Program-made: the position numbers and the translations under genes
Virus record (IMG/VR): IMGVR_UViG_3300037419_001224
Length of the DNA: 64,000 nucleotides
Reading direction: 5' to 3' (one strand)
Origin: a virus
Notes under the pieces: generated by a model
The model's database searches: none
What the model was told of the DNA's origin: nothing
What the model saw: only the letters and a program-made list of their open reading frames with translations
In this document: positions 21,195 to 52,986 of the stretch, one piece after another
Numbering within the stretch: position 1 is the first letter of the stretch
Layout: every line of letters starts with the position of its first letter

Positions 21195-21197
21195 CGG

Positions 21198-22073: not shown

Positions 22074-22079
22074 GGTGTG

Positions 22080-22628: not shown

Positions 22629-22644
22629 CGGGCATACCCTGGAA

Positions 22645-22668: not shown

Positions 22669-22676
22669 CTGGTTGG

Positions 22677-23813
22677 TCAATACCTTCTGCGGCGGATGAA
22701 ACACCTGAGCAGGAACACGAGCGGCGTGGTGGTGCCACCGAGCGCTTCCATCCTGGCTCCCTCCAGCGTGCTGGAGAACGTGCCGGTGATCGGCTGCGTC
22801 GTGCTGCTGGTCATCGACATCGTCGCGCCCGACAGCACGGCAACGAGCGTGCCGGAGAAGGTTTCCTTGCCGGTCATCGACATGGTCGCGCCAGCCAATG
22901 CCGGAGGAGCAAACGTGCCGGAGTAGATCAACTGGCCGGTCATCGACATGGTCGCCCCGGCGAGCGCATTGACGCCGATCGACATGGTTGCGCCCGCAAG
23001 GGTCGACGACAGCGTGCCGCTAAAGATTTCGCTGCCGGTGAACGATGCGGTCGCGTCAGCCAGTGTGGCCGCCAGCGTGCCGGTCGGGTTCACCGAGAAA
23101 TTGCGCCTGGTCCGCTTCGGGTCGGCGGACATCACGAACAACTGGTACGGGTTGAGCGTCAGCTCGCGCAGCTCCTGCGCATCGAGCGCCCGGTTCCAGA
23201 ATGCCCACACGCCGATCCATCCCTGCATCGGGATCAGCGGATTGGTGTCCAGTTGCGCGCCGATCACGAGCTGGGCAACCGGCGGCGCGTTCTGCACGGT
23301 CCCGGTCCCGGTGACGTCCTTGCCGTCCAGGTACACCAGCGGCACGGTGTTCATCTGCTTCATCGAGAACGCGGCCACGTAGCGCACGTTCGCCGACAGC
23401 AGCGCGGACGAGTTGTGCCCGGTCGCGCCATCGACCGCCAGCGTGTTGTTGCCGGCGATGCGGATCGCCGCGCCATCGGTGGAAAACGAGTTGCCGATCG
23501 ACAGAATCCCCTGGTCAGCCGGAGTCGTCGTGCTCAGCATGAACTCGCACAACAGCGTGATCGACTCGCCCCGGCCCTTGCACGCGAGCGCCTGCGCGAC
23601 CTGGGTGCCGTCGAACAGGGCCACCTTCTGGCCGAGCCGCACGCCCTTGGTCGGCAGCGAAAAGCCCGTGCCGGCAGTGATCTGGTAATCGATGATCCCG
23701 AGCGGCGTGAACGGGTTCGGCCCCGCCGCGATCAGCTCACGCGCATACGCCGACGACTTGTCGAGGCGCACACCCGGAGTCGGCTGCCGTACTGTCCGCA
23801 GATGCCGGCGCAT
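22677..23813 (-). CDS. LamG/concanavalin-like domain protein with C-terminal 21-residue repeats
   Basis: Start MRRHLRTV at 23813. The upstream part of track ORF 22677..24323 overlaps gene 23816..24259 and looks non-coding. LamG-like signature (...YLDG...IGAQ...WIGVWAFWNRALDAQELREL). Then GATMSMTG-type repeats. Confidence 0.65.
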   Translation of the reverse strand: MRRHLRTVRQPTPGVRLDKSSAYARELIAAGPNPFTPLGIIDYQITAGTGFSLPTKGVRLGQKVALFDGTQVAQALACKGRGESITLLCEFMLSTTTPADQGILSIGNSFSTDGAAIRIAGNNTLAVDGATGHNSSALLSANVRYVAAFSMKQMNTVPLVYLDGKDVTGTGTVQNAPPVAQLVIGAQLDTNPLIPMQGWIGVWAFWNRALDAQELRELTLNPYQLFVMSADPKRTRRNFSVNPTGTLAATLADATASFTGSEIFSGTLSSTLAGATMSIGVNALAGATMSMTGQLIYSGTFAPPALAGATMSMTGKETFSGTLVAVLSGATMSMTSSTTQPITGTFSSTLEGARMEALGGTTTPLVFLLRCFIRRRRY

Positions 23814-23815
23814 GA

Positions 23816-24259
23816 TTACGACACGTTTTCGTACACGAAGCGGTATTGCGCGGTGTTGCCGCTTCCGGCCAGCGACACGCCGGCATCGTTGTAGATGACG
23901 ATCTTGAACTGCGGCGGCAGCGTGCGGTATGCCGCGCCCACCGAGAACGCCTGCGACCGGAACGGGCCGGTGCCGGTGATGTCGAGCGTGCCTAGGCGGA
24001 ACAGGTTCGAGGTCTTCGTGTTGTCGGCGAAGTTGGTGCCGTCGACCGAGCTGATCGCATACACGACGATCTGCTTGTTGCCCGCCTCGACGACCTCGGC
24101 GACCACGATCTCGACCAGCACGTCCAGCACCGGATTGATGGAGCCGGCGATGTCGATCGCGTTCGACGTGGCCAGGCTGCCGGACGCCAGCGCGTTGAAC
24201 CCGGTAACGGTCAGCGACGTCGTCGTGCCGTACTTGAGGGTGATGTCCCCAGTAGCCAT
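23816..24259 (-). CDS. Tail-fibre module protein, paralogous to an internal domain of the 854-aa tailspike
   Basis: 147 aa. Aligns by eye along its length with the tailspike segment TITLDNLANGS...NTAQYRFVYENI, including the shared ending GNTAQYRFVYEN. Confidence 0.6.
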   Translation of the reverse strand: MATGDITLKYGTTTSLTVTGFNALASGSLATSNAIDIAGSINPVLDVLVEIVVAEVVEAGNKQIVVYAISSVDGTNFADNTKTSNLFRLGTLDITGTGPFRSQAFSVGAAYRTLPPQFKIVIYNDAGVSLAGSGNTAQYRFVYENVS

Positions 24260-24268
24260 GTGCTCCCC

Positions 24269-26833
24269 TTACGAAATCTGGATGGTCTGATTGAGTGCGT
24301 TGCGCCCAGTCGCGCTGTCCCACAGACCGGTATTGGCGAACCGGATCGCATACTCGGGACGGGTCGACAGCGCGGAGTCCGGGTCGGGCAGCAGCAGGTA
24401 CACCGCGTACGCGCCGGACGCCATGCCGACCGGCAGCGTCACGTTTTCATTGACCGTGATCTGGCTGCCTGGCAGCCATTTGCGCGGATCGGCCACCATC
24501 GACAGCGTGGTCACCGCGCCGGACACCGTGTGCCGCAGCACCAGCTTCACCGGACGCGGCATGCATGGCGCGGCGAACCCGGAATTGTTGACGATGATCG
24601 TCACCGGGATCGAGGTGCCGGACGTGGCGCTGGACGGCATCGTGCTCGAAATCAGTTCGAGCCGGTAACCGAGCTTCTTCTTGATCTGGTCGATGTAATA
24701 GCCGTTGGTCCCGGTGTTGTAGCCAGAGGTCGAACCGGCGGACGTATCGGATCGGTTGGCCCAGATATTCAGCACGCAGCGATCGTAGTTGCAGTTCAAA
24801 TACGTGGTGTGATACTTCGTCATGAACGCGATCGCAGGAACGCCACCGTTGTATGTCGCATTGAAGTTGGCTGCGTTTTCCTGGATATTCGTCTCGCCCC
24901 CGTGCGGCACCCATTTCGTGTCCTGCCGCATGAACGTGTCCTCGTTGAACGCGTTGTACGATGCGGACGGGCTGAACGGCGGATACACGAACGTGCCCCG
25001 GTCGGTCTGGCTCACACAGAACGAATCGTCGAAATGGCCGATCCGCGACCAGTCCGAGCCATTGAATGCCGCCGCGTCCTGCACGCCAACCACGTTGCCG
25101 AGCGCGCCGCCCAGCTTGATGTTGTTGTACATGCCCTTCACGTACGGCTGGCGTACCTGAACGAACCGGTTGGCCGGCAGGATTTGCAGCGTCTTCTGGA
25201 TGACCGTGCAGCGATTCGTCCTGGTGGTCGTATTCAGACTGTCCGGCCAGTTGTCCGAGCCGAAATCGGCGTTGCCCGATCCCTGGTACTCGCCCCACTG
25301 GCCGACCCAGCCGCACTGGACCATCATCAGGATGTCCGCGTTCGACGCGAAATAGGGCTGCAACTGGTCCGCGTGCCGCTGGATCTGCGCCAGCGACGCG
25401 CCGACCGCGCTGTTCTGGTCGTACGACACGCGCAGGATGATCTTCATGCCGCGAGTCCTGGCCGCATTGAAGTTGCTCTGCAACGCATTCAAGAAGGTGG
25501 CATCCAGATCCACCGTCTTGTAGTTGTTCATCAGGCAGTAATAGTGGATCAGCCGGACGTCGCGCTGGTAATTGTCCGGGTTCGTCGCGTCGGTGTTGAA
25601 GTAGGTCGACAGGTTCGACTGCGTCCAGTTTCCAAGATGGAACAGGTCCATGTAGAACCCGCGCTCGGGGTTCGGGATCTGCGCGGTGCTGACCGAGTAC
25701 GACACGGTCGACAAGCTGGTCGGCGTCGACGTGTTGATGTTTTCGTACACGAAGCGGTATTGCGCGGTGTTGCCCGACGCGGCCAGCGCCACGCCCGCAT
25801 CGTTATGCACGACCAGCTTCATGGCCGGCGGCAGTACGTTGTAGGCTGCCGCGACCGACAGCGACTGGGTGGTGAACCCGGTCGAGCCGGTCATGTCGAC
25901 CGTGCCGAGCAGGTTCAGGTTGTTCAGGTTCGTGCTGTCCGCGTAGTTCGTGCCATCCGTGCTGGATGCGCCATAGACGACGACCTGCGCATTGCCGGTC
26001 TGAATGATGTTGGCAATGGTGACATCGGCCATCACGTCCAGCACCGGAGCCGTTGCCCCGGCGATATTGATTGCGGAGCTGGTCGCGGTCGACCCGTTCG
26101 CGAGGTTATCGAGCGTAATGGTCAGCGCGGTCGTGGACCCGGTCCTGTCGGTGATGCCCGCAGGGGATGCCGCCGCCTTGATCTCGACCGCGATCACGCC
26201 GATATTGGTCGATGCGCTGGCGGTCGCATCGACCGTCGTATCGTTGTCTCCACGGAACTCGGTCGCGACAGCCGAGAAGGTTGCGCCGGTATCATGGATC
26301 TCGGTGAACCCGGAACCGGGCGTAAAGGTGCGCGGCACGCCGCCGCTGTCGCTCGCGCCGAACGCGCCATAGGTCGCATTGTTTTGCGACGAAAACCCGG
26401 CCAGGGTGGCGGTGATCGACGTGACACCCTCCGCCTTGTTCGTGACCACCTGGGCAATCGCGCCGGAACCGTTGGTGCCGGTGGTGTCGACGCCATCGAA
26501 CTCGACCAGGCTCCACGCGCACGACACGCAGTTGAACCCAGGATTGATCGTGATTGTGCCGGCGGTCGGGCTGCCGCCCATCGCCCGGTACAGCGACAGT
26601 TGCGCGTTGTAATTGCTGCCAGAGTTCAATGCCACTCCGACCTTCGCCACTTCGACCCAGGTCAGCCCGTTGCCGGACACGGACGTGAACGACGTCACCA
26701 CGCCAGTGGTTTCTTTCCCGATCTCGACCGCCAACAGTTGTAGTCTGTTTGCGCTGGGCGTGACCGATGCGGTAGTGAACGAAGACGCTGTCGATCCGGC
26801 GGAACCGGACGTCAGGGCAGCCTGCGTAACCAA
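24269..26833 (-). CDS. Tailspike with C-terminal glycosidase-like (DUF4874/DUF4832-type) domain
   Basis: 854 aa. N-terminal fibre modules, then NPERGFY ... KIILRVSYD ... GWVGQWGEY signatures typical of DUF4874/DUF4832 putative polysaccharide hydrolases. Confidence 0.6.
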   Translation of the reverse strand: MVTQAALTSGSAGSTASSFTTASVTPSANRLQLLAVEIGKETTGVVTSFTSVSGNGLTWVEVAKVGVALNSGSNYNAQLSLYRAMGGSPTAGTITINPGFNCVSCAWSLVEFDGVDTTGTNGSGAIAQVVTNKAEGVTSITATLAGFSSQNNATYGAFGASDSGGVPRTFTPGSGFTEIHDTGATFSAVATEFRGDNDTTVDATASASTNIGVIAVEIKAAASPAGITDRTGSTTALTITLDNLANGSTATSSAINIAGATAPVLDVMADVTIANIIQTGNAQVVVYGASSTDGTNYADSTNLNNLNLLGTVDMTGSTGFTTQSLSVAAAYNVLPPAMKLVVHNDAGVALAASGNTAQYRFVYENINTSTPTSLSTVSYSVSTAQIPNPERGFYMDLFHLGNWTQSNLSTYFNTDATNPDNYQRDVRLIHYYCLMNNYKTVDLDATFLNALQSNFNAARTRGMKIILRVSYDQNSAVGASLAQIQRHADQLQPYFASNADILMMVQCGWVGQWGEYQGSGNADFGSDNWPDSLNTTTRTNRCTVIQKTLQILPANRFVQVRQPYVKGMYNNIKLGGALGNVVGVQDAAAFNGSDWSRIGHFDDSFCVSQTDRGTFVYPPFSPSASYNAFNEDTFMRQDTKWVPHGGETNIQENAANFNATYNGGVPAIAFMTKYHTTYLNCNYDRCVLNIWANRSDTSAGSTSGYNTGTNGYYIDQIKKKLGYRLELISSTMPSSATSGTSIPVTIIVNNSGFAAPCMPRPVKLVLRHTVSGAVTTLSMVADPRKWLPGSQITVNENVTLPVGMASGAYAVYLLLPDPDSALSTRPEYAIRFANTGLWDSATGRNALNQTIQIS

Positions 26834-26834
26834 G

Positions 26835-27200
26835 TCAGCTCCAGGCGAGCGGGTTCACGGTGCGACCGAACAGGGTCACGGTCACGGTCGTGCCAGTGCC
26901 GCCGGCAGAGCGCACGCGCAGCTTCAGCGTCGCTTCCAGCACCTGCTTCAGGCCGGCAGCGGAGAACGCCAGGATCGTGCCTTGCGGGTCGCGCAGCGAT
27001 TCCCAGTTGGTGCTGTCGTTGCTGCCCTCGACCGTCACGGTCGCGCCGCCGAACGTGCCCTCGACCTGGATCGAGCGGTCCACGTAGTCGGACAGGTCGA
27101 CCTCGATGCCGGTGTCGGACGCGCCGAGCGTCCAGGTCGCGAGGATGATCGACTGCGCTCCCTGCGGTGCGCGCTTGACGTTTGGTACGATGTTGGCCAT
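26835..27200 (-). CDS. Hypothetical protein downstream of the portal
   Basis: 121-aa ORF, tightly packed with its neighbours. Confidence 0.55.
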   Translation of the reverse strand: MANIVPNVKRAPQGAQSIILATWTLGASDTGIEVDLSDYVDRSIQVEGTFGGATVTVEGSNDSTNWESLRDPQGTILAFSAAGLKQVLEATLKLRVRSAGGTGTTVTVTLFGRTVNPLAWS

Positions 27201-27202
27201 CT

Positions 27203-29563
27203 CTATTCCTTGGCGGGTTGCTGTTGGCTCATCTGCTGCTCATGCAGCCTGCTTTTCTCGGTCTCCAGCGCGCTCGCCTGCATCTCGGCAGCGGCGAGCT
27301 GCCGCTTGGTGGTCTCCACCATCGCGGTCTGCGCGAGCTGGGCCTTGGTCTGTTCGAGAGAGATCTTTTGCGAGTTCGCGTATTCGAGGATCGCGAGGTC
27401 GCGCTTCAGGCGCAGCTCTTCCATCTTCATCTGCTGGTTGTCGTGCGCGATCTGCAGTTGCGACTGCGCGAACGCGATCTCGCCCTTCTCCCTGGATTCG
27501 GCGGTGATCATCGACGCCTGGGCGCGGATCTTCGCGACATTCATCGCGGTTTCGGCCTTGACCTCTTCCGGCGACGGCGGCGGCGGCTGGTTCTTCAGCG
27601 CCTCGATCTCGGCATCGGACTTCAGGATCTCGGTCGGGTCGATGTGCTGGACCTTCAGCACTTCCTTCACGTACTTTTCCCAGTTCACCATCGGCGCGAT
27701 CGCCGGGTTGCCGGCAAAGCCGCCGAACTGCAGCAACGCCTGCTGCTGCATGTCGCGCACCAGCAACTCCGAGCTGCCGCGTGCATCGACCTGGAAATCG
27801 CCCTTGATCTCTTCCTTGTCGGAATAGCACATGAAGAAGTCGTAGTAGCGGCGGATATGCGGCCTGGTGATGCAATCGTCGAACTGCTTGACCATGCGCG
27901 ACAGCACGACGTTGGAGCTGTTCATCAGCAGCGTCATGCCGCCGACCGTCTCCGGCGCGGTGCCGCGTTCTCCCTGCGCCAGTTTCGGGACCGCCGATTC
28001 CTCGTCCGCGAACTTCAGCGCGAGCTCGATGATTTCCTCGAACTCCTTGGTGTTGTTCGGAATCTCGAAGATATCGAACGCGGTTCGCACGTCGACCGAG
28101 TCGTCCAGGCAGTTCCAGACCTTGCGCCCGGTGATCTGCCAGTTGCCGTCCGCCGGCTGCACGATCCCCGGCTTGACGATCACGTTCGGGCCGACCGACA
28201 GGCCGGCGTTGTCCATCATCTGCCGCCATGCCGCGTTCAATACCTTTTGCGCGGGCCGGCACAGGAACGGGATGCCGTAGCCCCAGCAACTGTTGTCGGC
28301 GCGCTCCCAGACCATGAAGTCGTACGGCAGGTCGCCGGTCTCCAGCGGGTTGACGAACCCCTTGATCACGGTCTTGTTCACGAACACGATGCAGCCGCTG
28401 ACGACTTCGGTCTCGCCGTCCGGCATGTCGATGCCGCAGGCGCGCAGATCCTCCGGGCGGAACTCGCCCCAGTATTCCCACACCTCGAAGTGCTTTTCTC
28501 CGCCGATATCCGGGTTGTTCTTGCGGTCGCGCTCGTTGGTAACGACTGGTGTCTGCGGGCCGTCTTCCAGGACTTTCTTGATCTGGTCCTTCAGGTAGCC
28601 CTGCTGCTTGGCCAGTTCGCGGATCTGCTTCGCGGTGCAGACCCGGCGCTCGTAGATGCCGGAGCCGTTGTGGACATCCTCGCCGCACGCGGGGTCCGGG
28701 AACACGTTCCACGGGTCGACTCGCTCGGACGCCGGCCTGATTTCGGAGATCAGCTCCAGCACATAGGTGTTTTGCGCGTCCTTCATCGGACGCCAAGCCT
28801 TCGAGATCCGGTTGACGACGATCGGCCCCTTCATGATGCCGGTGCCGATCACCGCGCAGTCATGCAGCATCTGCCGGCCCTGCGCGTTGTAGTCGCACTC
28901 GACCAGCGCGTCATGAATCTCGTCCTGCATTCCCTTCGCACGTTGCGCGGCGATCGCCAGTTGCGAGCTCGCGGTCTGCTGCGGTGGGAGCTGGATCACG
29001 GACTGCTGCGGCATTTGTCCCGGCTGTCCCTGCTGCGGCTGTCCCTGCTGCGGCTGTTGTTGCTGCGGCTGTTGTTGCTGGGACTGCTGCTGCATCACGA
29101 GCTGCGCCTGCTTCTGCGCTTCTTGCAGCGCGGCCTGCGTCAGTTTCGGGTTCGGCGTCGGTTTCAGACCCCAGCAGATATCGTCGACCGGGAACAGCAT
29201 GTTCGCCAGGCGCGCTTCCGCCGCGTTGGTTTTCGGGCGCGTGATATTGACGAACACGGTCGACCGCTGGACCTTGGTGTCGGTGGTCTTGATCGGATAT
29301 CCGGCTTCCGCCGCGTCCATCATGGTCGCGTTCTGCTTGTTCGCAGCGTCGCGGCTCATGTACTGGTCGATATCCTCCATCCAGCGCTTTTCGACGCCGG
29401 ACGCAGCCCGAGCCTGAACCCATCTGTCGCGTCGTGCAGCGAGCTGCGCGCCGAGCTGGTCCAGGTGCTCCTTGGCGATTTGCCGCATCTCGGCCTGCAC
29501 CATCGGATCGACTGCCATCGGTTCGCCAGCACTGATCACGCTTGCTTGTTCGTATGCGCTCAT
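27203..29563 (-). CDS. Portal protein
   Basis: About 786 aa, lying next downstream of terL. Gln-rich insert. Start taken as MSAYEQ at 29563. The upstream ATG at 29599 would lie inside the terminator hairpin. Confidence 0.7.
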   Translation of the reverse strand: MSAYEQASVISAGEPMAVDPMVQAEMRQIAKEHLDQLGAQLAARRDRWVQARAASGVEKRWMEDIDQYMSRDAANKQNATMMDAAEAGYPIKTTDTKVQRSTVFVNITRPKTNAAEARLANMLFPVDDICWGLKPTPNPKLTQAALQEAQKQAQLVMQQQSQQQQPQQQQPQQGQPQQGQPGQMPQQSVIQLPPQQTASSQLAIAAQRAKGMQDEIHDALVECDYNAQGRQMLHDCAVIGTGIMKGPIVVNRISKAWRPMKDAQNTYVLELISEIRPASERVDPWNVFPDPACGEDVHNGSGIYERRVCTAKQIRELAKQQGYLKDQIKKVLEDGPQTPVVTNERDRKNNPDIGGEKHFEVWEYWGEFRPEDLRACGIDMPDGETEVVSGCIVFVNKTVIKGFVNPLETGDLPYDFMVWERADNSCWGYGIPFLCRPAQKVLNAAWRQMMDNAGLSVGPNVIVKPGIVQPADGNWQITGRKVWNCLDDSVDVRTAFDIFEIPNNTKEFEEIIELALKFADEESAVPKLAQGERGTAPETVGGMTLLMNSSNVVLSRMVKQFDDCITRPHIRRYYDFFMCYSDKEEIKGDFQVDARGSSELLVRDMQQQALLQFGGFAGNPAIAPMVNWEKYVKEVLKVQHIDPTEILKSDAEIEALKNQPPPPSPEEVKAETAMNVAKIRAQASMITAESREKGEIAFAQSQLQIAHDNQQMKMEELRLKRDLAILEYANSQKISLEQTKAQLAQTAMVETTKRQLAAAEMQASALETEKSRLHEQQMSQQQPAKE

Positions 29564-29570
29564 AGGCCAG

Positions 29571-29596
29571 AAAAAGAAAAACCCGCACGAGGCGGG
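29571..29596 (-). terminator. Intrinsic terminator directly after the tRNA-like gene
   Basis: Minus strand reads CCCGC-CTCGT-GCGGG followed by TTTTTCTTTTT. Confidence 0.55.
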
Positions 29597-29624
29597 CAAA
29601 GGTGTGGTGACACCCGGTAGACAG

Positions 29625-29690
29625 TGGTGGCGGCAGGACTCGAACCTGCGACCTCTCCTTGCGGATGCTCTGCCGCTGGGCTACGCCACC
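29625..29690 (-). ncRNA. tRNA-like RNA gene with truncated anticodon arm (about 65 nt)
   Basis: GGTGGCG-TA-GCCC-AGCGGCA-GAGC-A-TCC-GCAA-GGA-GAGGTC-GCAGG-TTCGAGT-CCTGC-CGCCACC-A. Perfect 7-bp acceptor stem, D arm and T arm. The anticodon arm is replaced by a 3-bp stem with a GCAA tetraloop. Confidence 0.6.
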
Positions 29691-29693
29691 AGA

Positions 29694-31142
29694 TCAATAG
29701 CCGGCTTCCGCATCCAAGACGCCGATCACGACGCCGGCCTGCTGGAACCGGAAATGTTCCATGTTCACTCTCGCGTACCGCTTGGCCATCAGCGCATAGC
29801 GGGTCGCGGACATCAGGTCATCGTCTTCCTTGACGAGTTTTCCATCCTTGCGGTGGTAGATCCGGTATTCCTCGAACCAGTCGTTCAGGTGCCGGAACAC
29901 CTTGAACCGGCCCGTCTGCATGCGGTCGAGCATTTCCATGATCCCGGCCTCGACCGAATTGCTGCCGTCCGGCCAGGTGACCTTCTCGCCCATCATGTTG
30001 ATGCCGGCGTCCTTGTACAGCTTCGACAGCCGTTCGCCGGACCCCTTGTCGTGCTGCATGCCGTCGTGCGGCCACGCGACCGGAATCCAGTTCCCCTTGC
30101 CGCGCATCATCGCCGCATGGACCGCCGGAGTCTGTTCCTTTTCCCGGTAGCAGTCGTACACGTACATCGTGTCGGTGTCCGGGTCGAACGCCGCCCAGAC
30201 CGCCGCGAACGCGTGGTTGTAGCCAAAGTCGACCGCCGCCACCCTCGGCCAGTGGGCCGGGATCTTGAACGGCTCGACCATGATCCGGTCTTCCACGACC
30301 GGGAACACCGCGCCGGAACCAAGCAGCGGGATACCGAGCAGACGCGCCTTTCTCTCGTGGTCCTTGTACCGGGCCGCGATCTGCGCACGCTCTTCCGCCG
30401 TGTAGTGCAGCGCGTCGTCGATCGTCATCTGCACGTAGGTCGTGCCTAGCGGCTTCTCTTGCAGGAACCGCTTGACGACCTTCGACATCCCGAGCAACGG
30501 GGTAAACGTCAGGAACACGAACCCTTTCGTCGCATTGGTCCGGGTCAGCCCTTCCATGTAGATATCTTCAGGCGGCTCCTCGTCGAACCACACGAACTCC
30601 AGGGTTTCGCCCTGCCAGCGCTCACGTCCCTGGTCGTAGGTCTTCAGCGTGATCCGCGACAATCCTCCGGTGGCGTATCGCACCGAGATCGATTCGACCG
30701 CATCGGGAACCCCGTGCGCGGCCCGCTTGATCTCGACGATCGACTCTTTCGGGATCATCCCGGTGCCCCACTCGCCGGGTTTCCCTAGCAGCAGCCGCTG
30801 CACCGTGTCGCGGGTTCCCTGCGACGTCTCGGACGCAGCCCATGCAGTCACGGGCGCGGAGAATTTCCTGCCAGGCCACCAGTCCGGGTACTTGCCGGTC
30901 AGGTGCATCGCGGTCTCGGCGGACGCAGCCAAGGTCTTGCCGAGCTGGTTGCCCGCCATCAGCAGGACTTCCGAGATCCCAGGCCGAGCCGAGCACGCGT
31001 GAAAATCCTTTTGCTTCGGGTACGGCGCGTAATGGGCGAGCTGGTTTTCCTTGAGTTGCCGTTCTTTCGCTTCGAGCAACTCCAATAGCTGCCGCTTCTC
31101 GTCCATTGACATGGTCGAGAGGTCGATCTTGGATAAGTCCAT
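29694..31142 (-). CDS. terL: Terminase large subunit
   Basis: 482 aa with ATPase region (LMAGNQLGKT) and C-terminal nuclease region. Adjacent to the portal. Confidence 0.8.
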   Translation of the reverse strand: MDLSKIDLSTMSMDEKRQLLELLEAKERQLKENQLAHYAPYPKQKDFHACSARPGISEVLLMAGNQLGKTLAASAETAMHLTGKYPDWWPGRKFSAPVTAWAASETSQGTRDTVQRLLLGKPGEWGTGMIPKESIVEIKRAAHGVPDAVESISVRYATGGLSRITLKTYDQGRERWQGETLEFVWFDEEPPEDIYMEGLTRTNATKGFVFLTFTPLLGMSKVVKRFLQEKPLGTTYVQMTIDDALHYTAEERAQIAARYKDHERKARLLGIPLLGSGAVFPVVEDRIMVEPFKIPAHWPRVAAVDFGYNHAFAAVWAAFDPDTDTMYVYDCYREKEQTPAVHAAMMRGKGNWIPVAWPHDGMQHDKGSGERLSKLYKDAGINMMGEKVTWPDGSNSVEAGIMEMLDRMQTGRFKVFRHLNDWFEEYRIYHRKDGKLVKEDDDLMSATRYALMAKRYARVNMEHFRFQQAGVVIGVLDAEAGY

Positions 31143-31280
31143 GGGGGAAGAATTAGGTGAGGCCCGTTACGTGGGCCAGGCGGCGCAAGTCACTCAGGGA
31201 GAAAGCGAGGAAAGACCTGAGCCCTGGCTGCCGGTGTTTTAAAGCCACCTCCGGCTGGGCAGCGCCATTGCGGCGCGAAG

Positions 31281-31613
31281 TCATTTGCAATGGCAACCGG
31301 CGGGATCGGCCCAGTCCAGCAAGACCCGACAGACGTGTCCGGCAATCCTGCCGCGCCATCCGCCCGTCCCCTGGTACCGCTCCAGCCGCTCGGTGAACGT
31401 CCATTCCCTCGGCACGTCCAGGAACACGATCGTCCCGTACAGCACCGTGTAAACCGCATCCACCGCCAGCGTCAGATACACGACCAGCAGCGCCACCCAC
31501 TGCGCATCAGGATTCACCCCTCCGCGCTTCAAGGTCATCGACGCCAGGAACAGCACCCACAGCACGAAGCTGCACGGCACAAAGCCCGCAATCAACAGCA
31601 GCACGTACCACAT
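31281..31613 (-). CDS. Membrane protein
   Basis: 110 aa with two or three TM segments (MWYVLLLIAGFVPCSFVLWVLFLA...). Confidence 0.5.
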   Translation of the reverse strand: MWYVLLLIAGFVPCSFVLWVLFLASMTLKRGGVNPDAQWVALLVVYLTLAVDAVYTVLYGTIVFLDVPREWTFTERLERYQGTGGWRGRIAGHVCRVLLDWADPAGCHCK

Positions 31614-32006
31614 TCAAGTCACCGTTCCAGACATCGACATCGTTGCATCCGCCATGGTCGGACCCATCGTCCCTTCCACCAGGCTGTTGTTCATTCCACT
31701 CACCGACATCACCAAATCAGGTGCCGACGCGATGATCACGCCAGCCGGTGGCGGCTGCTGCGGCACATAGAAATTCGCATCCGGCACGAAGTGGTAAATC
31801 CCCACCAGCCCGATCTCCGCATCGTCCAGCGCCACTTCCGTCACGTACGCGTCCCGAGCAATCAACCCTTCCAGCGCCAATACCCTCGGGATCTCGTGCA
31901 GCGGGAACTTCACGATCAACTGGTCCGCATCCACGAACCGTTCCTTCAGACTCTCCAGCAGCACCAGCCGTACCCTGTTCAGTCTGACTGTTGCTGTTGT
32001 CGTCAT
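31614..32006 (-). CDS. Hypothetical protein ending in a GATMSMSG-type repeat
   Basis: 130 aa. The C-terminus (...TMGPTMADATMSMSGTVT) shares the repeat motif of genes 20427..21194 and 22677..23813. Confidence 0.55.
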   Translation of the reverse strand: MTTTATVRLNRVRLVLLESLKERFVDADQLIVKFPLHEIPRVLALEGLIARDAYVTEVALDDAEIGLVGIYHFVPDANFYVPQQPPPAGVIIASAPDLVMSVSGMNNSLVEGTMGPTMADATMSMSGTVT

Positions 32007-32417
32007 CGCTATACCGTTGTTGATTTGCTATTGGGCTCGTGTGCGGGAAAATTTTTTATTTTTTGGGAGAGGAATCTGAAAGTGGTACCTACTGGGCCAC
32101 TTTGTGGGAGCGCGAAACGCAAAGCGGGGTGGGTGGGGGTCCAGAATAAAAAGGTACCCCCCTCCCCCCCTTCATTAATCCTGCTCCAACACAACGCCGC
32201 CGGCCTGGCGCGCAGCCAGCTCAAGCCACCATGCCCAGGCACATGGCCTGTCACTTGGGCTCAATGAGTTGATATAACAATGTGTAAAACAATATGCATG
32301 TCGACCCGCACATGACGCAGATCCGGGGCGGATTGCGTGGTGCGCTTGGGTAGACTTGATGTGACGCGCAAGGTCAGGCGGATTCGTGCCAGGCTGGCAA
32401 TGAACTCGCTAAGAATG

Positions 32418-32675
32418 TCAGATCAGTATCACTGCGACCAGCAACAGGAGATCAAGCAAGATTACATACACGCGTGTGCGCGATACCCGTTGGCACAGTT
32501 GCAACCGTGTTCTCTCCCCTTCCCTCTCCCCTTGCTGCGTGGCTGCCCTTAACTCTGGCTGCGGATTGCCTGCCTCTCCTGAGTGAGCGCTCTGTTTGGC
32601 TATCCGTCTTTCCTCGCACCCCTTCAGGATGAACTCCATGCACTCTGCACATGTATTGGCGTTGTGGAACGACAT
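32418..32675 (-). CDS. Possible tail-anchored small Cys-rich protein
   Basis: 85-aa ORF from an internal ATG (MSFHNANTCAEC...). C-terminal hydrophobic tail VYVILLDLLLLVAVILI. No clear SD. Confidence 0.3.
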   Translation of the reverse strand: MSFHNANTCAECMEFILKGCEERRIAKQSAHSGEAGNPQPELRAATQQGEREGERTRLQLCQRVSRTRVYVILLDLLLLVAVILI

Positions 32676-32698
32676 CCGATAGTGCGGGCACTTGCACT

Positions 32699-33043
32699 TC
32701 ACTCGACCGTCTCCCCTTGCGCTCTCATCTTCTTCTTCACTTGCTCGCGCATCCACTCTACTGCTTCTTCTGACTTGCCCAGCTCTCCGGTAAGCAAGCG
32801 TCGATAGACCATTGCGCCTGTCTGACGCCATGTGATCTCTACTGCCCCGTGACTAATGGCCAGCTCTCTCTTGCTCAGGCAGATGTCGTAATGACTATAC
32901 GGTGTCTTGGGGCGCTGATGCCATTTGCGCGCTACGCCGATCCTGGCTGCCATCGCATGCAGCTCTTCATCCGTGTCGGCGATCATGTGGCACATCACCA
33001 TCCTGCCGAACTGGGCTCGCATGTCATCAACGTAGACAGTCAT
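32699..33043 (-). CDS. DUF4031 family protein
   Basis: MTVYVDD...GRMVMCHMIADT.EEL..MA..IG...HYD pattern typical of DUF4031. Confidence 0.65.
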   Translation of the reverse strand: MTVYVDDMRAQFGRMVMCHMIADTDEELHAMAARIGVARKWHQRPKTPYSHYDICLSKRELAISHGAVEITWRQTGAMVYRRLLTGELGKSEEAVEWMREQVKKKMRAQGETVE

Positions 33044-33047
33044 TGCG

Positions 33048-33272
33048 TTACTTCCTGCGCCTTGTGCTCTCTACAGCGTCTCTCAGCCTGGCTCTGGCCT
33101 CATGCAGGCGCAGTGCTGCGATATCCCGGTGCAGTATCAGCTCCCTGGTCGGGATCGCCGTGCATATGCCGAGCGTCTGACCTTGCACGCGGCGCTTCAT
33201 CGTGTAGATCGTCACGCCGTGCCTTGTGCGCTCCTTGCTATTGCTGACGGCTTTAGGCATCGCTCTTCTCAC
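33048..33272 (-). CDS. Small basic hypothetical protein
   Basis: 74-aa ORF (alternative start MPKAV at 33260), tightly packed. Confidence 0.4.
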   Translation of the reverse strand: MRRAMPKAVSNSKERTRHGVTIYTMKRRVQGQTLGICTAIPTRELILHRDIAALRLHEARARLRDAVESTRRRK

Positions 33273-33664
33273 TCGCCGTACACAGGGAACATGACCAGAT
33301 CACAGAACTCCAGCCAGTCCTTCATCTGATCCTGCCACTGACCATGGCACAGATCCGCTGTGTACTTGTCAGGGAAAAACCGGTGTCGCCACATATTGCC
33401 AATGCTCTTGCCCTTCAGCGCCACCACGTACCCGATCACTCTCCGCTGCCGCTTATTCCACCTTGCTATCGCCTCTGCCCTGGTGTCATGACAACATGAG
33501 CACGGGAATACAGCAAAGGTGCCAGTGTCGATCTCTATCTGGGCCTTGCATGACTTGCAACGGATTGTGTAGTCCTGATGATCGTGGCCGTAATACTCCG
33601 CACAAGCAGTGGCGTCCTCTTCTGCCTCACCACCACAAAATGGACAAGGTTTGAGCTCAGGCAT
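33269..33664 (-). CDS. Lar-family restriction-alleviation-like protein
   Basis: N-terminal LKPCPFCGGEAE zinc-ribbon signature of the Lar_restr_allev family, plus ARWNKR. Confidence 0.6.
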   Translation of the reverse strand: MPELKPCPFCGGEAEEDATACAEYYGHDHQDYTIRCKSCKAQIEIDTGTFAVFPCSCCHDTRAEAIARWNKRQRRVIGYVVALKGKSIGNMWRHRFFPDKYTADLCHGQWQDQMKDWLEFCDLVMFPVYGE

Positions 33665-33667
33665 CGC

Positions 33668-33787
33668 TCAGCTCTCGTCTCTATCGAAGACGCCCCACAT
33701 CGCCAGAACAAACAGCAGCCCAATGATGAACAGGAAGCCGTAGCCAAAGAAAGCCGCAATCACGGAAATAATGTCCTCTGCGCTCAT
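33668..33787 (-). CDS. 39-aa single-TM peptide
   Basis: MSAEDIISVIAAFFGYGFLFIIGLLFVLAMWGVFDRDES. ATGA overlap with the upstream small ORF. GAGGG about 10 nt upstream. Confidence 0.4.
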   Translation of the reverse strand: MSAEDIISVIAAFFGYGFLFIIGLLFVLAMWGVFDRDES

Positions 33788-33900
33788 CAGAAAAATGCCC
33801 TCGCTATCAGTCTCAGCAACTCGATCACGCCCCAGCCAATGATGCCTATCAGCACCATGTAGATGGCGCACATCAGCTTGAACAATTCGTTGTCAAACAT
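33787..33900 (-). CDS. 37-aa single-TM peptide
   Basis: MFDNELFKLMCAIYMVLIGIIGWGVIELLRLIARAFF. Weak SD. Confidence 0.35.
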   Translation of the reverse strand: MFDNELFKLMCAIYMVLIGIIGWGVIELLRLIARAFF

Positions 33901-33905
33901 ATACT
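33878..33905 (+). promoter_or_regulatory. Sigma70-like promoter for the Rap1a/Tai4-like moron
   Basis: TTGAAC, 16-nt spacer, TATACT. Followed by AGGAGA and the ATG at 33936. Confidence 0.45.
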
Positions 33906-33935
33906 GTCCGTAACAACAACCAACCAGGAGACGCC

Positions 33936-34322
33936 ATGAAACGCGTTGTTGCCTTGCTGCTATGCGCAGCACCAATGCTCTGTTCCGCACAGTCAGACTG
34001 GACTGGCGCTAAGCTCCTCGAAGCCTGCAACGCGACCATCCGCTCTATCGACCAACATCGCCCAGGCAACCCCGTGGAGGATCTGCGCGACGGCATCTGT
34101 ATCGGCTACTTCCACGGGTTCATGGATGGGCAGAGCGCTGCAGTCTCCGGCTTGGTCCCTAGCAAGTCATACTGCCCACCAGCCTCATTGACTGTCGAAC
34201 AATCGATGCGGATCACGCTCAAATTCATTAACGATCACCCTGAGCACCTCCACAGGTACGGAGGCGACATTGCCGCCGTTGCGCTACTCAAAGCTTTCCC
34301 GTGCCAACGCGGCCAGCAGTGA
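33936..34322 (+). CDS. Rap1a/Tai4-like periplasmic T6SS amidase-effector immunity protein (moron)
   Basis: 128 aa. Signal peptide MKRVVALLLCAAPMLCSAQS. Pattern C...C.GY..G..DG...C.P...T..Q....L.F...HPE..H.....A..ALL.AFPC matches the Rap1a/Tai4 family as I remember it. Opposite strand to all neighbours. Confidence 0.6.
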   Translation: MKRVVALLLCAAPMLCSAQSDWTGAKLLEACNATIRSIDQHRPGNPVEDLRDGICIGYFHGFMDGQSAAVSGLVPSKSYCPPASLTVEQSMRITLKFINDHPEHLHRYGGDIAAVALLKAFPCQRGQQ

Positions 34323-35072
34323 CTATCGCACCAGATGCGGCTGATACACGCTCCTTGGAGTGGCCGGCATCAGCGACTTCCATGCGACCTCTTTCAGACA
34401 TACGCCCAGTGACGCACAGTCAACCGCGACAAAGGTCGGGTCGCTCGTGTCACTGGTCGCCGTCACAATTCTGAGCTCCCAGCGGATCGCAATGTTCGAT
34501 GTCGCCACGCCGCCGGCTGTCGTCTGCGCGCCTACGTTCGTCCAGTTCGTGGTCGGGGTCAACGCCGTGGCGCTGTCCGTCTCGCCACCAATCACGCGCA
34601 TGAACAGGTATTCCTGGCTTGTGCCGCCAGTCAGCGTCATCGATCCAGGGTCAGCCGCCGTCGTGGCTTCGACCTGCTTGTCCATGATCTGCCATGCATT
34701 ACCAGCGCCAACCGTGAGGAACGTGTTCAGGTACGCCTTGGCCGTGACTGCGCCGGCAAACGTCATCGTCCAGGTATCGCCCGTGACGAGCTGCACAGTC
34801 AGCTTCGATGCCCATAACGCGACAGTGACGCCTGCGTTCGCCGCACCTCTGCTGTTCGTGAATTCGCCTACCTTGTGCCAGTAATTGCCCTTGCTGTCAG
34901 TGACACTGATCGTTTCACTATTGTCACCATCCGTGGCGCTCAGGTTATCGAACGCCACCGCATAGAACACGATGCGGCCAACCGCCAGCGTGCCGCTGAT
35001 CGTATCCGTCAATGTCGAGCTGCTGGTCTTGTTGTTCCCCGCAGTGAAACCGCCATTGTTGGTCCATGCCAT
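34323..35072 (-). CDS. Stand-alone paralogue of the tailspike N-terminal domain
   Basis: 249 aa. Loose by-eye similarity to residues 1-220 of the 854-aa tailspike (blocks RIVFYAVAF/LQLLAVEI, SKGNYWHKVGEF/GNGLTWVEVAKV, VTVALWASK/AQLSLYRAM). Confidence 0.5.
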   Translation of the reverse strand: MAWTNNGGFTAGNNKTSSSTLTDTISGTLAVGRIVFYAVAFDNLSATDGDNSETISVTDSKGNYWHKVGEFTNSRGAANAGVTVALWASKLTVQLVTGDTWTMTFAGAVTAKAYLNTFLTVGAGNAWQIMDKQVEATTAADPGSMTLTGGTSQEYLFMRVIGGETDSATALTPTTNWTNVGAQTTAGGVATSNIAIRWELRIVTATSDTSDPTFVAVDCASLGVCLKEVAWKSLMPATPRSVYQPHLVR

Positions 35073-35073
35073 G

Positions 35074-35337
35074 TCAACTGATCACACCGTCAAACCAGCC
35101 CTGCGCAATGGCCACCGCATAGATCGCGTCCGCAATGTCATCCTTGCGCGACTTGGTCGCATCACCCTGCGCCAGCAATACCGGCAGCACGAGATCAGGC
35201 CCAGCGTCGATCACGGCCTCGCCGATCAACTCGGCCTCCACGTATCGCTGGAATGTCAGCTTGGCCGTGCCAGCAAGCGCATCGATATACATCTTGGTCA
35301 GAACAAAGCTGACCGAAGCCTGTTTACTGACTGGCAT
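35074..35337 (-). CDS. Hypothetical protein
   Basis: 87-aa ORF, tightly packed. Confidence 0.5.
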   Translation of the reverse strand: MPVSKQASVSFVLTKMYIDALAGTAKLTFQRYVEAELIGEAVIDAGPDLVLPVLLAQGDATKSRKDDIADAIYAVAIAQGWFDGVIS

Positions 35338-35339
35338 GG

Positions 35340-35945
35340 TTATTCAACTTTCACTCTTTTCAACAATGCGTTCAGCTTCTGGTCGATCTGGCTGTCGCTC
35401 ATCTTGACCTCGCCCGTGTGCTCGACGATCTGGTGATCGCCATACATCCTGGGCAGCAGCCTGGACATCGTCCACTGCTTGGTGTTGACCACCACCTTCA
35501 TCGCCTGCACCTGCTCACTCGTGAGCCCAGGCTGCATCAATGCGTTGCAATGATCGACCAGCTCTTCAGCCATACCGGCAGCGCGCATCTTGAGCGCCGT
35601 GTGATACAACTGCATCAGCTCGGGATCGTCGTGGCACCACTTCAGGAACACGCTCTTGTCAGGCATGCCCACTTCCCTGGTCAGCTTCTGCATGCTCTCG
35701 CCGCCTGCAATGCGCTGACACAGCTCGACTGAGACTTCCTTGCGCAGCGCAATATCCTGTTCTTCCGTGGGCAATGCGGGCAACAGCCCCTTGTTGCGCA
35801 TCCTGACAGCGGCCCAGCCTGGCCTGCCGGCTTCTTCCAGCGCCTGGTTGATCCTGGTGTTCCAGCCATCGTCAAGCAGGCCGGAATCCCGGATCTCCAT
35901 CAGCATGAGTTTGAGAACGTCGCTCACAACTGCGCTCTCACCCAC
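35340..35945 (-). CDS. terS: Terminase small subunit-like protein
   Basis: 201 aa. HTH-like middle region (SMQKLTREVGMPDKSVFLKWC) and ...KQWTMSRLLPRMYGD pattern seen in small terminases. Lies 4 kb upstream of terL. Confidence 0.45.
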   Translation of the reverse strand: MGESAVVSDVLKLMLMEIRDSGLLDDGWNTRINQALEEAGRPGWAAVRMRNKGLLPALPTEEQDIALRKEVSVELCQRIAGGESMQKLTREVGMPDKSVFLKWCHDDPELMQLYHTALKMRAAGMAEELVDHCNALMQPGLTSEQVQAMKVVVNTKQWTMSRLLPRMYGDHQIVEHTGEVKMSDSQIDQKLNALLKRVKVE

Positions 35946-36118
35946 TCGCAGAACTTGGCAATGCGGCCATCATCAGCTTCCAAGTCATCAAGACTGAATA
36001 TCGGCTTGCCATCAAACCAGATCTGAGGCTTCTCGCCATCATGTTTGACCGTGCCGACCTCAATCTCGTGAGCAGGTTTACGCTTCACCTTTGGTGTCGT
36101 AAAGAACAGCCCCATCAT
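35924..36118 (-). CDS. Hypothetical protein
   Basis: 64-aa ORF. Confidence 0.4.
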   Translation of the reverse strand: MMGLFFTTPKVKRKPAHEIEVGTVKHDGEKPQIWFDGKPIFSLDDLEADDGRIAKFCEWVRAQL

Positions 36119-36303
36119 CCCACCATCTTGCGAGTGATCGACATGATGTCCTGCTTCTCTTCCGCAGGCATCTTCGGTTTAAGCGTCAGTCTCGGCGCAG
36201 GGTCAGTGCTGAATACCCATTCACGCACTTCCGACTCGGTCGGATCGGCACCTGGATACGAGTCCAGGAAGTCGACCGCCGGCACAAAATTCTGCTCGTT
36301 CAT
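36115..36303 (-). CDS. Hypothetical protein
   Basis: 62-aa ORF overlapping the downstream start. Confidence 0.4.
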   Translation of the reverse strand: MNEQNFVPAVDFLDSYPGADPTESEVREWVFSTDPAPRLTLKPKMPAEEKQDIMSITRKMVG

Positions 36304-36312
36304 CGTTCTCTC

Positions 36313-36525
36313 TCACTTGAGTGAGGCGACCACCGCTTCGATGCGCTCGACGCGCTGTGCCACCTCTTCCAGCTTGTTCATTACGTCCTGTAATGTGACA
36401 CTCGGCGTCATCAGACGTTCCAGGTCAGGATCAAGCTTTACCTCATTTTTCTTGTCCTGTTCCATGCGTTCCTTTAACACCACGCTTGCCCGATTGCGAA
36501 ACAACACTTTCGGGATAATCCTCAT
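36313..36525 (-). CDS. Hypothetical coiled-coil protein
   Basis: Start MRIIPKV at 36525 forms an ATGA overlap with the upstream stop. Confidence 0.45.
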   Translation of the reverse strand: MRIIPKVLFRNRASVVLKERMEQDKKNEVKLDPDLERLMTPSVTLQDVMNKLEEVAQRVERIEAVVASLK

Positions 36526-52871: not shown

Positions 52872-52986
52872 GCCGACGTAGCTCAGCCAGGTAGAGCACA
52901 GGGCGCTGACCGCTGCTTGCAAGGATCGCCACCTTGGGCAAGTCACATTGGCCTTGAGGCCGCAGGTTCGATTCCTGCCGTCGGTT
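52872..52986 (+). ncRNA. tRNA-like RNA gene carrying about 40 extra nt between the D arm and T arm (115 nt)
   Basis: Acceptor GCCGACG/CGTCGGT, D arm GCTC-AGCCAGGTA-GAGC and T arm GCAGG-TTCGATT-CCTGC are canonical. The middle 63 nt cannot form one standard anticodon arm plus a short variable loop. Confidence 0.55.

What the first reader, a model, noticed from the sequence alone, without database searches (positions are those of the whole stretch)
29571..29690. tRNA-like gene with the anticodon arm replaced by a 3-bp stem and GCAA tetraloop, with its own terminator, between terL and the portal
The 65-nt minus-strand element has three canonical parts. They are a perfect 7-bp acceptor stem (GGTGGCG/CGCCACC), a D arm, and a T arm (GCAGG-TTCGAGT-CCTGC) with discriminator A. 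Only 17 nt separate the D and T arms, where about 22-23 nt are needed. Those 17 nt fold as A-TCC-GCAA-GGA-GAGGTC, which gives no 7-nt anticodon loop, so the RNA cannot decode.

An intrinsic terminator (CCCGC-CTCGT-GCGGG-TTTTTCTTTTT) follows 28 nt downstream, in the middle of the late operon. That suggests a discrete expressed RNA rather than random debris.

Possible roles, all speculative:
- a decoy or competitor for tRNA-targeting host nucleases or modification enzymes;
- an RNase P or CCA-adding substrate marking an mRNA processing site between terL and the portal;
- a decayed tRNA.

Its T arm differs by one base from that of the second aberrant tRNA-like gene at 52872..52986.
Basis: seen in the sequence. 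Interest (0 to 1): 0.6.

Follow-up and report, generated by a model that had tools for sequence, protein, structure and literature searches.

The report
Anticodon-less tRNA-derived gene in phage
Between the terminase and portal genes of an otherwise unknown temperate phage sits a 66-base gene that descends from a methionine-type tRNA, keeps the tRNA body but has a closed four-base cap where the anticodon should be; it cannot decode, no relative carries it, and whether it is a useful tRNA look-alike or a dead tRNA gene remains open.

Summary
Window 29625-29690 (minus strand) scores 45.4 bits on the Rfam tRNA model (cut-off 29). It has a perfect 7-bp acceptor stem, a canonical T arm, a D arm with one C12.A23 mismatch and a normal AGGUC variable loop. 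The anticodon arm is only UCC-GCAA-GGA, so it has no anticodon, and ARAGORN rejects it.

Its acceptor and D arms match environmental tRNAs that almost all carry CAU (Met/Ile2 type), so it is tRNA-derived. It is a singleton. I found no copy in IMG/VR, JGI metagenomes, GenBank phages or 401 Burkholderiales genomes. The closest phage relative (terL 65%, portal 61%) has an unrelated structured spacer at this site.

The terminator is real, but it is one of at least five in the late operon, so it is weak evidence for a separate gene.

For selection:
- None of 4370 simulated one-step deletions of real anticodon arms gives a GNRA cap.
- Analogous short-armed tRNA look-alikes occur in 68 viral contigs, some with compensatory changes.

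For decay:
- There is no conservation.
- The D stem has a mismatch.
- The same genome holds a second, apparently broken, tRNA-like gene.

My best reading is that host tRNA enzymes cut it out of the late transcript, so it acts as an RNase P "punctuation" site and releases a non-decoding tRNA mimic. An inert relic is almost as likely. Earlier notes of this scan report similar sealed-anticodon look-alikes in other phages, on unrelated DNA.

The parts
29694..31142 (-). terL (large terminase), 482 aa; its stop codon lies 3 nt upstream of the tRNA-like element
   Evidence: Translation. Pfam Terminase_6N/6C. PHROG terminase large subunit.
29625..29690 (-). E1, a 66-nt tRNA-derived element: 65-nt body plus discriminator A, with no encoded CCA
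   Evidence: Rfam RF00005 at 45.4 bits against a cut-off of 29. Fold. U at position -1.
29684..29690 (-). Acceptor stem, 5' strand GGUGGCG. It pairs 7/7 Watson-Crick with 29626-29632 (CGCCACC)
29667..29681 (-). D arm GCCC-AGCGGCA-GAGC with A14, G15, G18, G19 and A21 present; the stem has one C12.A23 mismatch
   Evidence: The alignment marks the pair as non-standard. 30 of 30 full-length tRNAs with the same acceptor have U12-A23.
29656..29665 (-). Mini-hairpin UCC-GCAA-GGA (3 bp plus a GNRA tetraloop) in place of the 17-nt anticodon arm, flanked by A (29666) and G (29655)
   Evidence: None of 4370 simulated one-step deletions of real arms gives a GNRA cap.
29633..29654 (-). Variable loop AGGUC plus T arm GCAGG-UUCGAGU-CCUGC (5/5 Watson-Crick, canonical T-loop)
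29600..29615 (-). Small 6-bp hairpin in the 3' trailer (GGGUGU-CACC-ACACCU)
   Evidence: Fold of 29560-29700; prediction only.
29571..29597 (-). Intrinsic terminator GCCCGC-CUCGU-GCGGGU plus UUUUUCUUUUU; it ends 7 nt before the portal ATG
27203..29563 (-). Portal gene. The start ATG at 29563 is set by alignment to the L001 portal; no Shine-Dalgarno motif lies upstream
52872..52986 (+). E2, the second aberrant tRNA-like element (about 47 extra nt in the anticodon loop) in the same phage. It is not part of E1 but bears on its reading
   Evidence: Rfam at 49.5 bits. The fold is not better than shuffles (z -0.27). Absent behind vWA homologues.

Best explanation
E1 descends from a Met/Ile2(CAU)-type tRNA gene. 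It keeps the 'top half' that tRNA-processing enzymes read (acceptor and T-arm stack, elbow nucleotides, U at -1, A73). Its anticodon arm has been rebuilt into a closed 3-bp, GCAA-capped stub.

Proposed mechanism:
- It has no promoter of its own and lies on the coding strand 3 nt after the terL stop codon, so it is transcribed as part of the late operon (inferred).
- There it should behave like any embedded tRNA. RNase P cuts at its 5' end and separates the terS-terL message from the portal and head message. 3' trimming and CCA addition then release a stable 66-nt tRNA-shaped RNA (inferred from what these enzymes need; not shown).
- That RNA cannot be charged through an anticodon-dependent synthetase and cannot decode.

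In effect it is an RNase P 'punctuation' mark that yields a mascRNA-like by-product. This cutting would happen whether or not selection maintains the element. Whether the released RNA has a job of its own is unknown.
For: - It is a complete tRNA body by covariance model (45.4 bits), and the fold is significantly stable.
- The acceptor (7/7) and T arm (5/5) are perfect, the T-loop is UUCGAGU, and G18G19, G15/C48, U8/A14 and U-1 can all be read directly.
- It lies on the same strand as terL and the portal gene, 3 nt from the terL stop, with no promoter-like site upstream.
- Ancestry: 30 metagenome tRNAs share its 24-nt 5' part and its acceptor 3' strand. 28 have CAU and 2 have GAA. The nearest tRNA body (L251) has only a handful of differences from E1's by eye.
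- The arm is not a simple lesion. None of 4370 one-step 6-7-nt deletions of 190 real arms yields a GNRA cap, and nothing of the CUCAUAA loop remains.
- The damage (D-stem mismatch, stub arm) is confined to the bottom half, which RNase P and CCA-adding enzymes do not need.
- The slot holds structured RNA in the closest relative too (L001, z -4.4). E2 likewise replaces a plain intercistronic hairpin found in relatives.
- The same design occurs in other phages: 68 IMG/VR loci against about 0.4 expected by chance. Members such as L180 (CCC-CUUG-GGG) and the pair L177/L183 show compensatory acceptor and T-stem changes around an unchanged stub.
- The mascRNA model is the next-best non-tRNA structural match on E1's own strand, although far below its threshold (18.1 bits).
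Against: - There is no expression or cleavage data.
- No orthologue exists, so there is no covariation for E1 itself.
- The closest relatives do without it, and most terL relatives abut the portal gene directly, so it is not a required part of late-operon design.
- The C12.A23 mismatch and the alternative D-region pairing in the minimum-energy fold may weaken the L-shape.
- There is no encoded CCA, which lowers bacterial RNase P affinity.
- The deletion simulation is post hoc.
- Ascertainment bias: only tRNA relics with intact bodies are detectable, so 'lesion only in the anticodon arm' is expected for relics as well.
Confidence: 0.4

Rival explanations
1. Inert relic. A phage-borne tRNA-Met/Ile2 gene lost its anticodon loop and is decaying. 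It may still be cut by RNase P, but nothing selects for it.
For: - It is a singleton with no copy anywhere searched and is absent from the nearest relatives.
- The derived T12C change breaks a D-stem pair that is conserved in all 30 full-length look-alikes.
- The same genome holds another aberrant tRNA-like gene whose insert is not structured (z -0.27) and is not conserved behind vWA homologues.
- Many short-armed tRNA look-alikes in IMG/VR sit in tRNA arrays, where decay products are expected.
- 30% of simulated deletions give some 3-bp plus tetraloop hairpin by chance.
Against:
- Phage genomes tend to purge useless DNA (general knowledge).
- Analogous stub-armed elements show compensatory changes in other phages.
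Confidence: 0.38
2. Trans-acting tRNA decoy. The released RNA binds a host protein that recognises the tRNA body, such as a defence nuclease that removes or cuts anticodon arms or an acceptor-end-modifying toxin. Because it has no cleavable loop, it acts as a competitive inhibitor.
For: - The body and elbow are intact, and the loop is sealed by a nuclease-resistant GNRA cap.
- Defences that amputate the anticodon arm or leave anticodon-less tRNA are described (PMC12445682, from its title and abstract line; the review PMC13434031, passage read).
- The phage also carries a SPOUT RNA methyltransferase and a spare tRNA-Val, so it invests in tRNA biology.
Against: - This is purely an analogy. No partner gene lies nearby; the neighbours are terL and the portal gene.
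- Late-operon expression is late for a counter-defence.
- I found no described case of such a phage decoy RNA in five literature searches.
- There is no conservation.
Confidence: 0.15
3. Not an RNA at all: a chance tRNA resemblance in a spacer whose only function is the terminator and the portal leader.
For: No promoter was found, and terminators are common in this operon.
Against: - Rfam E-value of 1.8e-6 over 64 kb.
- 7/7 and 5/5 Watson-Crick stems plus every invariant tRNA base.
- Near-identity of the body to real tRNA-Met genes.
Confidence: 0.03

Closest known systems
Canonical elongator tRNA-Met / tRNA-Ile2 (CAU), Rfam RF00005, including phage-borne copies
   Same: - The acceptor stem and D arm are identical (apart from T12C) to 30 environmental tRNAs, 28 of them CAU.
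- It shares the T arm, the AGGUC variable loop and discriminator A73.
- It passes the Rfam tRNA threshold.
   Different: - It has no 5-bp anticodon stem, no 7-nt loop, no U33 and no anticodon; a 10-nt GNRA-capped stub stands in their place.
- ARAGORN rejects it.
- It has no encoded CCA, whereas the phage's true tRNA-Val has one.
mascRNA / MEN-beta tRNA-like RNA (Rfam RF01684), cut from the 3' end of MALAT1 by RNase P and RNase Z
   Same: - It works alike in principle: a tRNA-shaped module of about 60 nt with a shortened anticodon arm, embedded downstream of a longer transcript. Cutting at such a module both ends the upstream RNA and releases a non-decoding small RNA (established knowledge for mascRNA).
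- The mascRNA model gives a weak hit on E1.
   Different: - The score is 18.1 bits against a cut-off of 42.5, so it is not a member.
- mascRNA is eukaryotic and nuclear, with no shared ancestry.
- Processing of E1 is inferred only.
tRNA punctuation and t-elements of organelle transcripts, and tRNAs embedded in bacterial or phage operons
   Same: It is a tRNA-shaped structure between two coding regions on the coding strand, expected to be recognised by RNase P and 3' processing enzymes.
   Different: - Those elements are conserved and experimentally mapped, whereas E1 is a singleton with no data.
- t-elements usually keep only the acceptor and T half, whereas E1 also keeps the D arm.
Stub-armed tRNA look-alikes in IMG/VR phage contigs found here (for example L180, L173, L225, L192, L177/L183), and the sealed-anticodon mimics reported by earlier notes of this scan
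   Same: - They share the architecture: 64-66 nt, A26, a 10-11-nt closed hairpin, a 5-nt variable loop and a canonical T arm.
- They are also missed by ARAGORN-type logic.
   Different: - There is no sequence homology in the stems.
- The contexts differ (tRNA arrays and early genes). None lies between terL and the portal gene, and there is no PTH2 neighbour here.
- The class is mixed, and many members have unstructured linkers.
Tag-less mini-tmRNA (tRNA-like domain only) of phages
   Different: - E1 has U3-A70, not the G3:U70 alanine identity pair.
- It has a normal D arm.
- ARAGORN tmRNA mode finds nothing.

Membership tests
tRNA (Rfam RF00005) | Score at or above the curated gathering threshold over the full model | tested here: met
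   45.4 bits against 29, model positions 1-71.
tRNA (functional, decoding) | 5-bp anticodon stem with a 7-nt loop carrying U33 and a 3-nt anticodon | tested here: not met
   Only UCC-GCAA-GGA is present. ARAGORN finds no gene at default settings and no valid register at 80% or 60% thresholds.
tRNA (functional, decoding) | Acceptor 7 bp, T arm 5 bp with a UUCRANY loop, and D loop with G18G19 | tested here: met
   7/7 and 5/5 Watson-Crick pairs, T-loop UUCGAGU and D-loop AGCGGCA. One C12.A23 mismatch in the D stem.
tRNA-Met/Ile2 (CAU) lineage | Body shared with tRNAs that carry CAU | tested here: met
   A pattern built from E1's acceptor and D arm finds 30 metagenome tRNAs, all full length: 28 CAU and 2 GAA. 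Not found in the 401 Burkholderiales-order genomes searched.
mascRNA-menRNA (Rfam RF01684) | Score at or above the gathering threshold | tested here: not met
   18.1 bits against 42.5, E 0.52.
mascRNA-like / tRNA punctuation (function) | RNase P cleavage at the 5' end and release of a small stable RNA | not testable with these tools
   This needs RNA-seq, northern blots or an in vitro RNase P assay.
tmRNA tRNA-like domain / mini-tmRNA | G3:U70 alanine identity pair and a tmRNA-type D region | tested here: not met
   E1 has U3-A70 and a canonical D arm. ARAGORN tmRNA mode finds none. The tRNA model outscores its clan mates.
Bacterial Y RNA (YrlA) | Ends paired into a long Ro-binding stem with the tRNA-like acceptor closed by a loop, next to an rsr (TROVE) gene | tested here: not met
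   E1 has free acceptor ends and no long stem. Its neighbours are terL and the portal gene. TROVE is not among the top 25 Pfam families of 58 phage proteins; 12 lower-ranked families were not shown.
Sealed-anticodon tRNA mimics behind phage PTH2 (earlier notes of this scan) | Position directly behind a peptidyl-tRNA hydrolase gene | tested here: not met
   The flanking genes are terL and the portal gene.
Intrinsic terminator | GC-rich hairpin followed by a U-tract | tested here: met
   6-bp stem with 5 GC pairs, 5-nt loop, then UUUUUCUUUUU.
Conserved RNA gene (any family) | Orthologues with compensatory base changes | tested here: not met
   No orthologue was found in 160 terL-relative loci, IMG/VR patterns, JGI metagenomes or GenBank phages.

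The most novel reading that the evidence does not exclude
E1 is a selected, non-decoding tRNA mimic. A tRNA-Met body was deliberately sealed with a GNRA cap, is excised from the late transcript by RNase P, and is used by the phage in one of two ways. It may set the terminase-to-structural-protein message ratio. Or it may act as a product-like decoy for host defences that attack tRNA anticodon arms. Either way it would be one instance of a wider class of anticodon-less tRNA look-alikes in phages, a class I did not find described in five full-text searches.
Probability: 0.25. Interest if true: 0.7.

Novelty: new variant of a known kind. Interest (0 to 1): 0.4.

Why it matters
Phage tRNA genes are usually read as codon-usage helpers or, more recently, as replacements for tRNAs destroyed by host defences. 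A tRNA body kept without any anticodon fits neither role. If selection maintains such elements, they point to other uses of the tRNA shape in phages:
- message punctuation by RNase P, or
- titration of tRNA-binding host proteins.

They would also show that standard tRNA finders miss these elements. This copy alone cannot settle the matter. It is a singleton, and an inert relic explains it nearly as well. Its value is as one more data point, and as a clean test substrate because it is short, solitary and sits at a defined operon position.

Tried and rejected
**Searches for copies of E1**
- Exact and degenerate DNA patterns for E1 in IMG/VR found nothing: the full 3' half, D arm plus T-loop, and a design-specific pattern.
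- A megablast and a blastn search, with queries spanning the locus, found only unrelated short matches in GenBank phages. A blastn of E1 alone hit only ordinary full-length tRNAs.
- The single metagenome scan, using E1's acceptor and D arm with a free middle, gave only full-length tRNAs and no truncated ones.
- The same pattern found nothing in 401 genomes of the order of the best genomic terL relative.

**Searches for orthologous spacers**
- Among 160 terL-relative loci from IMG/VR and GTDB genomes, ARAGORN, a custom stem/T-loop scan and Rfam (on 15 loci) found no tRNA-like element downstream of terL.
- terL has relatives at 67-70% identity in the protein collection.

**Checks on linked ideas**
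- A vWA protein and tRNA-like RNA module was rejected. Five vWA homologues have only a plain hairpin downstream.
I found only a 17/20-nt match, and 10 of 200 shuffles scored as well.
- Two extra GGTTCGANTCC motifs in the window (18660 and 52525) lack flanking stems and lie in coding sequence, so they are chance.
- Neighbours of stub-armed look-alikes in IMG/VR show no common gene.
- Five literature searches found no description of phage genes for anticodon-less tRNA-like RNAs.
- Paralogy of E1 and E2 was rejected. Only the generic T arm is shared, and the acceptor stems differ at 4 of 7 pairs.

Full report
**What is there**

On the minus strand, 3 nt after the terL stop codon, lies a 66-nt sequence (29690 to 29625). 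It reads GGUGGCG-UA-GCCC-AGCGGCA-GAGC-A-UCC-GCAA-GGA-G-AGGUC-GCAGG-UUCGAGU-CCUGC-CGCCACC-A.

- Rfam's tRNA model matches it end to end at 45.4 bits (cut-off 29; E 1.8e-6 for the 64-kb window). It is one of only three Rfam hits in the window. The others are a true tRNA-Val(CAC) at 58990-59064 and a second aberrant element at 52872-52986.
- ARAGORN does not call it, even at 60-80% thresholds in the right register.
- The minimum-energy fold gives the 7-bp acceptor stem, the T arm and the UCC/GCAA/GGA hairpin (-30.7 kcal/mol, z -3.3).
- All invariant tRNA bases of the upper body can be read in the sequence: U8, A14, G15/C48, G18G19, A21, U54-U55-C56, A58 and G53-C61. The base before the 5' end is U.
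- There are two blemishes: a C12.A23 mismatch in the D stem and no encoded CCA. The phage's tRNA-Val does encode CCA.
- The anticodon arm is 10-11 nt instead of 17 and has no 7-nt loop, so the RNA cannot decode.

**Surroundings**

- terL is 29694-31142 (Terminase_6N/6C).
- The portal gene starts at ATG 29563. Its start aligns from residue 1 with the portal of the closest relative, and its product hits annotated portals.
- Between E1 and the portal gene lie a small predicted hairpin (29615-29600) and an intrinsic terminator (29597-29571).
- No sigma-70-like promoter lies upstream.
- The terminator is not special. The late operon has at least five minus-strand intrinsic terminators at gene junctions, as expected for an antiterminated late operon.
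- The window as a whole is a temperate phage with integrase, terS, terL, portal, head, tail, recombination and replication genes. GC content is 60%.

**Ancestry**

I built a pattern from E1's acceptor stem and D arm with a free middle. In JGI metagenomes it found 30 tRNAs, all full length. 28 have the CUCAUAA loop of Met/Ile2(CAU) tRNAs and 2 are Phe(GAA). The nearest (L251) has only a handful of differences from E1's body by eye. So E1 descends from a CAU-type tRNA. None of these tRNAs is truncated, and the pattern is not found in the 401 genomes searched from the order of the best genomic terL relative.

**Conservation**

I found none.

- GenBank phages have no nucleotide relatives, and their portals are at most 38% identical, so the 'Bcep22-like' label is unsupported.
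- The best terL relatives anywhere are 70% identical.
- In 160 terL-relative loci, no tRNA or tRNA-like element lies downstream of terL.
- The closest phage (L001; terL 65%, portal 61%) has a 281-nt spacer with an unrelated, strongly structured RNA (z -4.4) that ends in a U-tract before the portal gene.
- Most other relatives join terL directly to the portal gene.
- Four E1-specific pattern scans of IMG/VR found nothing.

E1 is therefore a lineage-specific insertion into a variable junction, and covariation cannot be tested for it.

**Relic or selected?**

Against a simple lesion:
- I deleted every possible 6 or 7 consecutive bases from 190 distinct real anticodon arms. 30% of the products can form some 3-bp plus tetraloop hairpin, but none of 4370 has a GNRA loop.
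- Nothing of a CUCAUAA loop survives in E1. So several changes hit the arm, while all 24 acceptor and T-stem bases stayed Watson-Crick paired.
- A design pattern (7-nt D loop, D stem, 14-21 nt, GGTTCGANTCC) finds 68 IMG/VR loci, against about 0.4 expected by chance (my own estimate). These give 49 distinct short-armed tRNA look-alikes.
- Several have closed stubs like E1's: L180 CCC-CUUG-GGG, L173, L225 and L192.
- L177 and L183 keep an identical stub while the acceptor pair 5:68 and the T-stem pair 49:65 change on both sides. A 66-nt gut-phage family varies at pair 1:72 as U-A, C-G and U.G.

For a relic:
- E1 is a singleton.
- T12C breaks a pair kept in all 30 full-length look-alikes.
- The second aberrant element in this phage (E2) has an insert that folds no better than shuffles. 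It is absent behind five vWA homologues, which have a plain hairpin there.
- Many IMG/VR look-alikes sit in tRNA arrays.
- The class is mixed, with many unstructured linkers.
- There is an ascertainment bias. Only relics whose bodies stay intact can be noticed, so 'damage confined to the anticodon arm' is expected for relics as well.

**Mechanism**

The following would hold whichever of these readings is right. It is inferred from the known requirements of RNase P, RNase Z or exonucleases, and the CCA-adding enzyme, and it is not shown here.

- An RNA with this acceptor and T stack, elbow and U-1, transcribed inside the late operon, should be cut at 29690/29691.
- That cut would separate the terS-terL message from the portal and head message and release a 66-nt tRNA-shaped RNA.
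- This is how mascRNA is made from MALAT1, and how organelle tRNA punctuation works.
- E1 is not a member of the mascRNA family (18.1 against 42.5 bits).

A trans-acting decoy role is conceivable, since defences that remove anticodon arms are described (PMC12445682; PMC13434031). It rests on analogy only. Five literature searches found no description of phage genes for anticodon-less tRNA look-alikes.

**Earlier notes of this scan**

These notes are unchecked leads.

- Several report sealed-anticodon tRNA look-alikes in other phages, some of them between terL and the portal gene and some behind PTH2.
- One reads a similar case as a broken tRNA-Tyr.
- One reads E2 as a dead tRNA-Thr whose insert copies the vWA gene. 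I could reproduce only a weak 17/20-nt similarity for that claim.

**Verdict**

- E1 is tRNA-derived and non-decoding (high confidence).
- An RNase P punctuation site with a released mimic is my best reading (0.40).
- An inert relic is nearly as likely (0.38).
- A decoy is less likely (0.15).
- Interest is moderate.

Noticed in passing
L001:4447-4726: The closest relative's terL-portal spacer is a 280-nt non-coding stretch. It folds far better than shuffles (-115 kcal/mol, z -4.4), contains a CCGCGAAAGCGG hairpin, and ends in GGGGCUUUUUAUUU just before the portal ATG. It has no Rfam match at gathering thresholds. It may be an undescribed structured RNA occupying the same slot as E1.
   Followed up: partly
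window 52872-52986 (+): A second tRNA-like element (49.5 bits) has about 47 extra nt in the anticodon loop and lies 9 nt after the stop codon of a vWA-domain gene (52063-52863). Five vWA homologues in IMG/VR (62-71% aa) have only a 45-50-nt spacer with a GC hairpin there.
   Followed up: partly
window 55330-55788 (+): A 152-aa SPOUT (SpoU family) RNA methyltransferase, E 5e-13 (by my recollection about the size of TrmL; not tested), lies in the early-right operon of a phage that carries one true and two aberrant tRNA genes.
   Followed up: no
window 17569-37322 (-): The late operon contains at least five minus-strand intrinsic terminators at gene junctions (stems starting at 37322, 29597, 22670, 20198 and 17592). 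This implies processive antitermination for late gene expression.
   Followed up: no
window 29563-29580 (-): The portal start codon has no Shine-Dalgarno motif and lies 7 nt after the terminator U-tract. The relative L001 has AGGAA at the usual distance. The only strong SD-like motif nearby (AAGGAG) lies inside E1's stub arm.
   Followed up: no
L161-L228 (IMG/VR): The scan found 49 distinct tRNA look-alikes with arms 4-11 nt too short. They include a 66-nt human-gut phage family (TGGAATG...; 9 variants in 22 loci) and a 61-nt family with no arm at all (ATCCCCT...). Most are not callable as tRNAs, and some sit in phage tRNA arrays.
   Followed up: partly
L261:251-365 (-): A vWA-relative contig carries a near-threshold match to the Betaproteobacteria-1 RNA (48.7 against 49.4 bits). 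This hints that this phage group infects Betaproteobacteria.
   Followed up: no
window 57855-59064: A tyrosine integrase gene (57855-58802, +) lies next to a complete tRNA-Val(CAC) with encoded CCA (58990-59064, -). No att-type repeat of the tRNA is present elsewhere in the window.
   Followed up: partly
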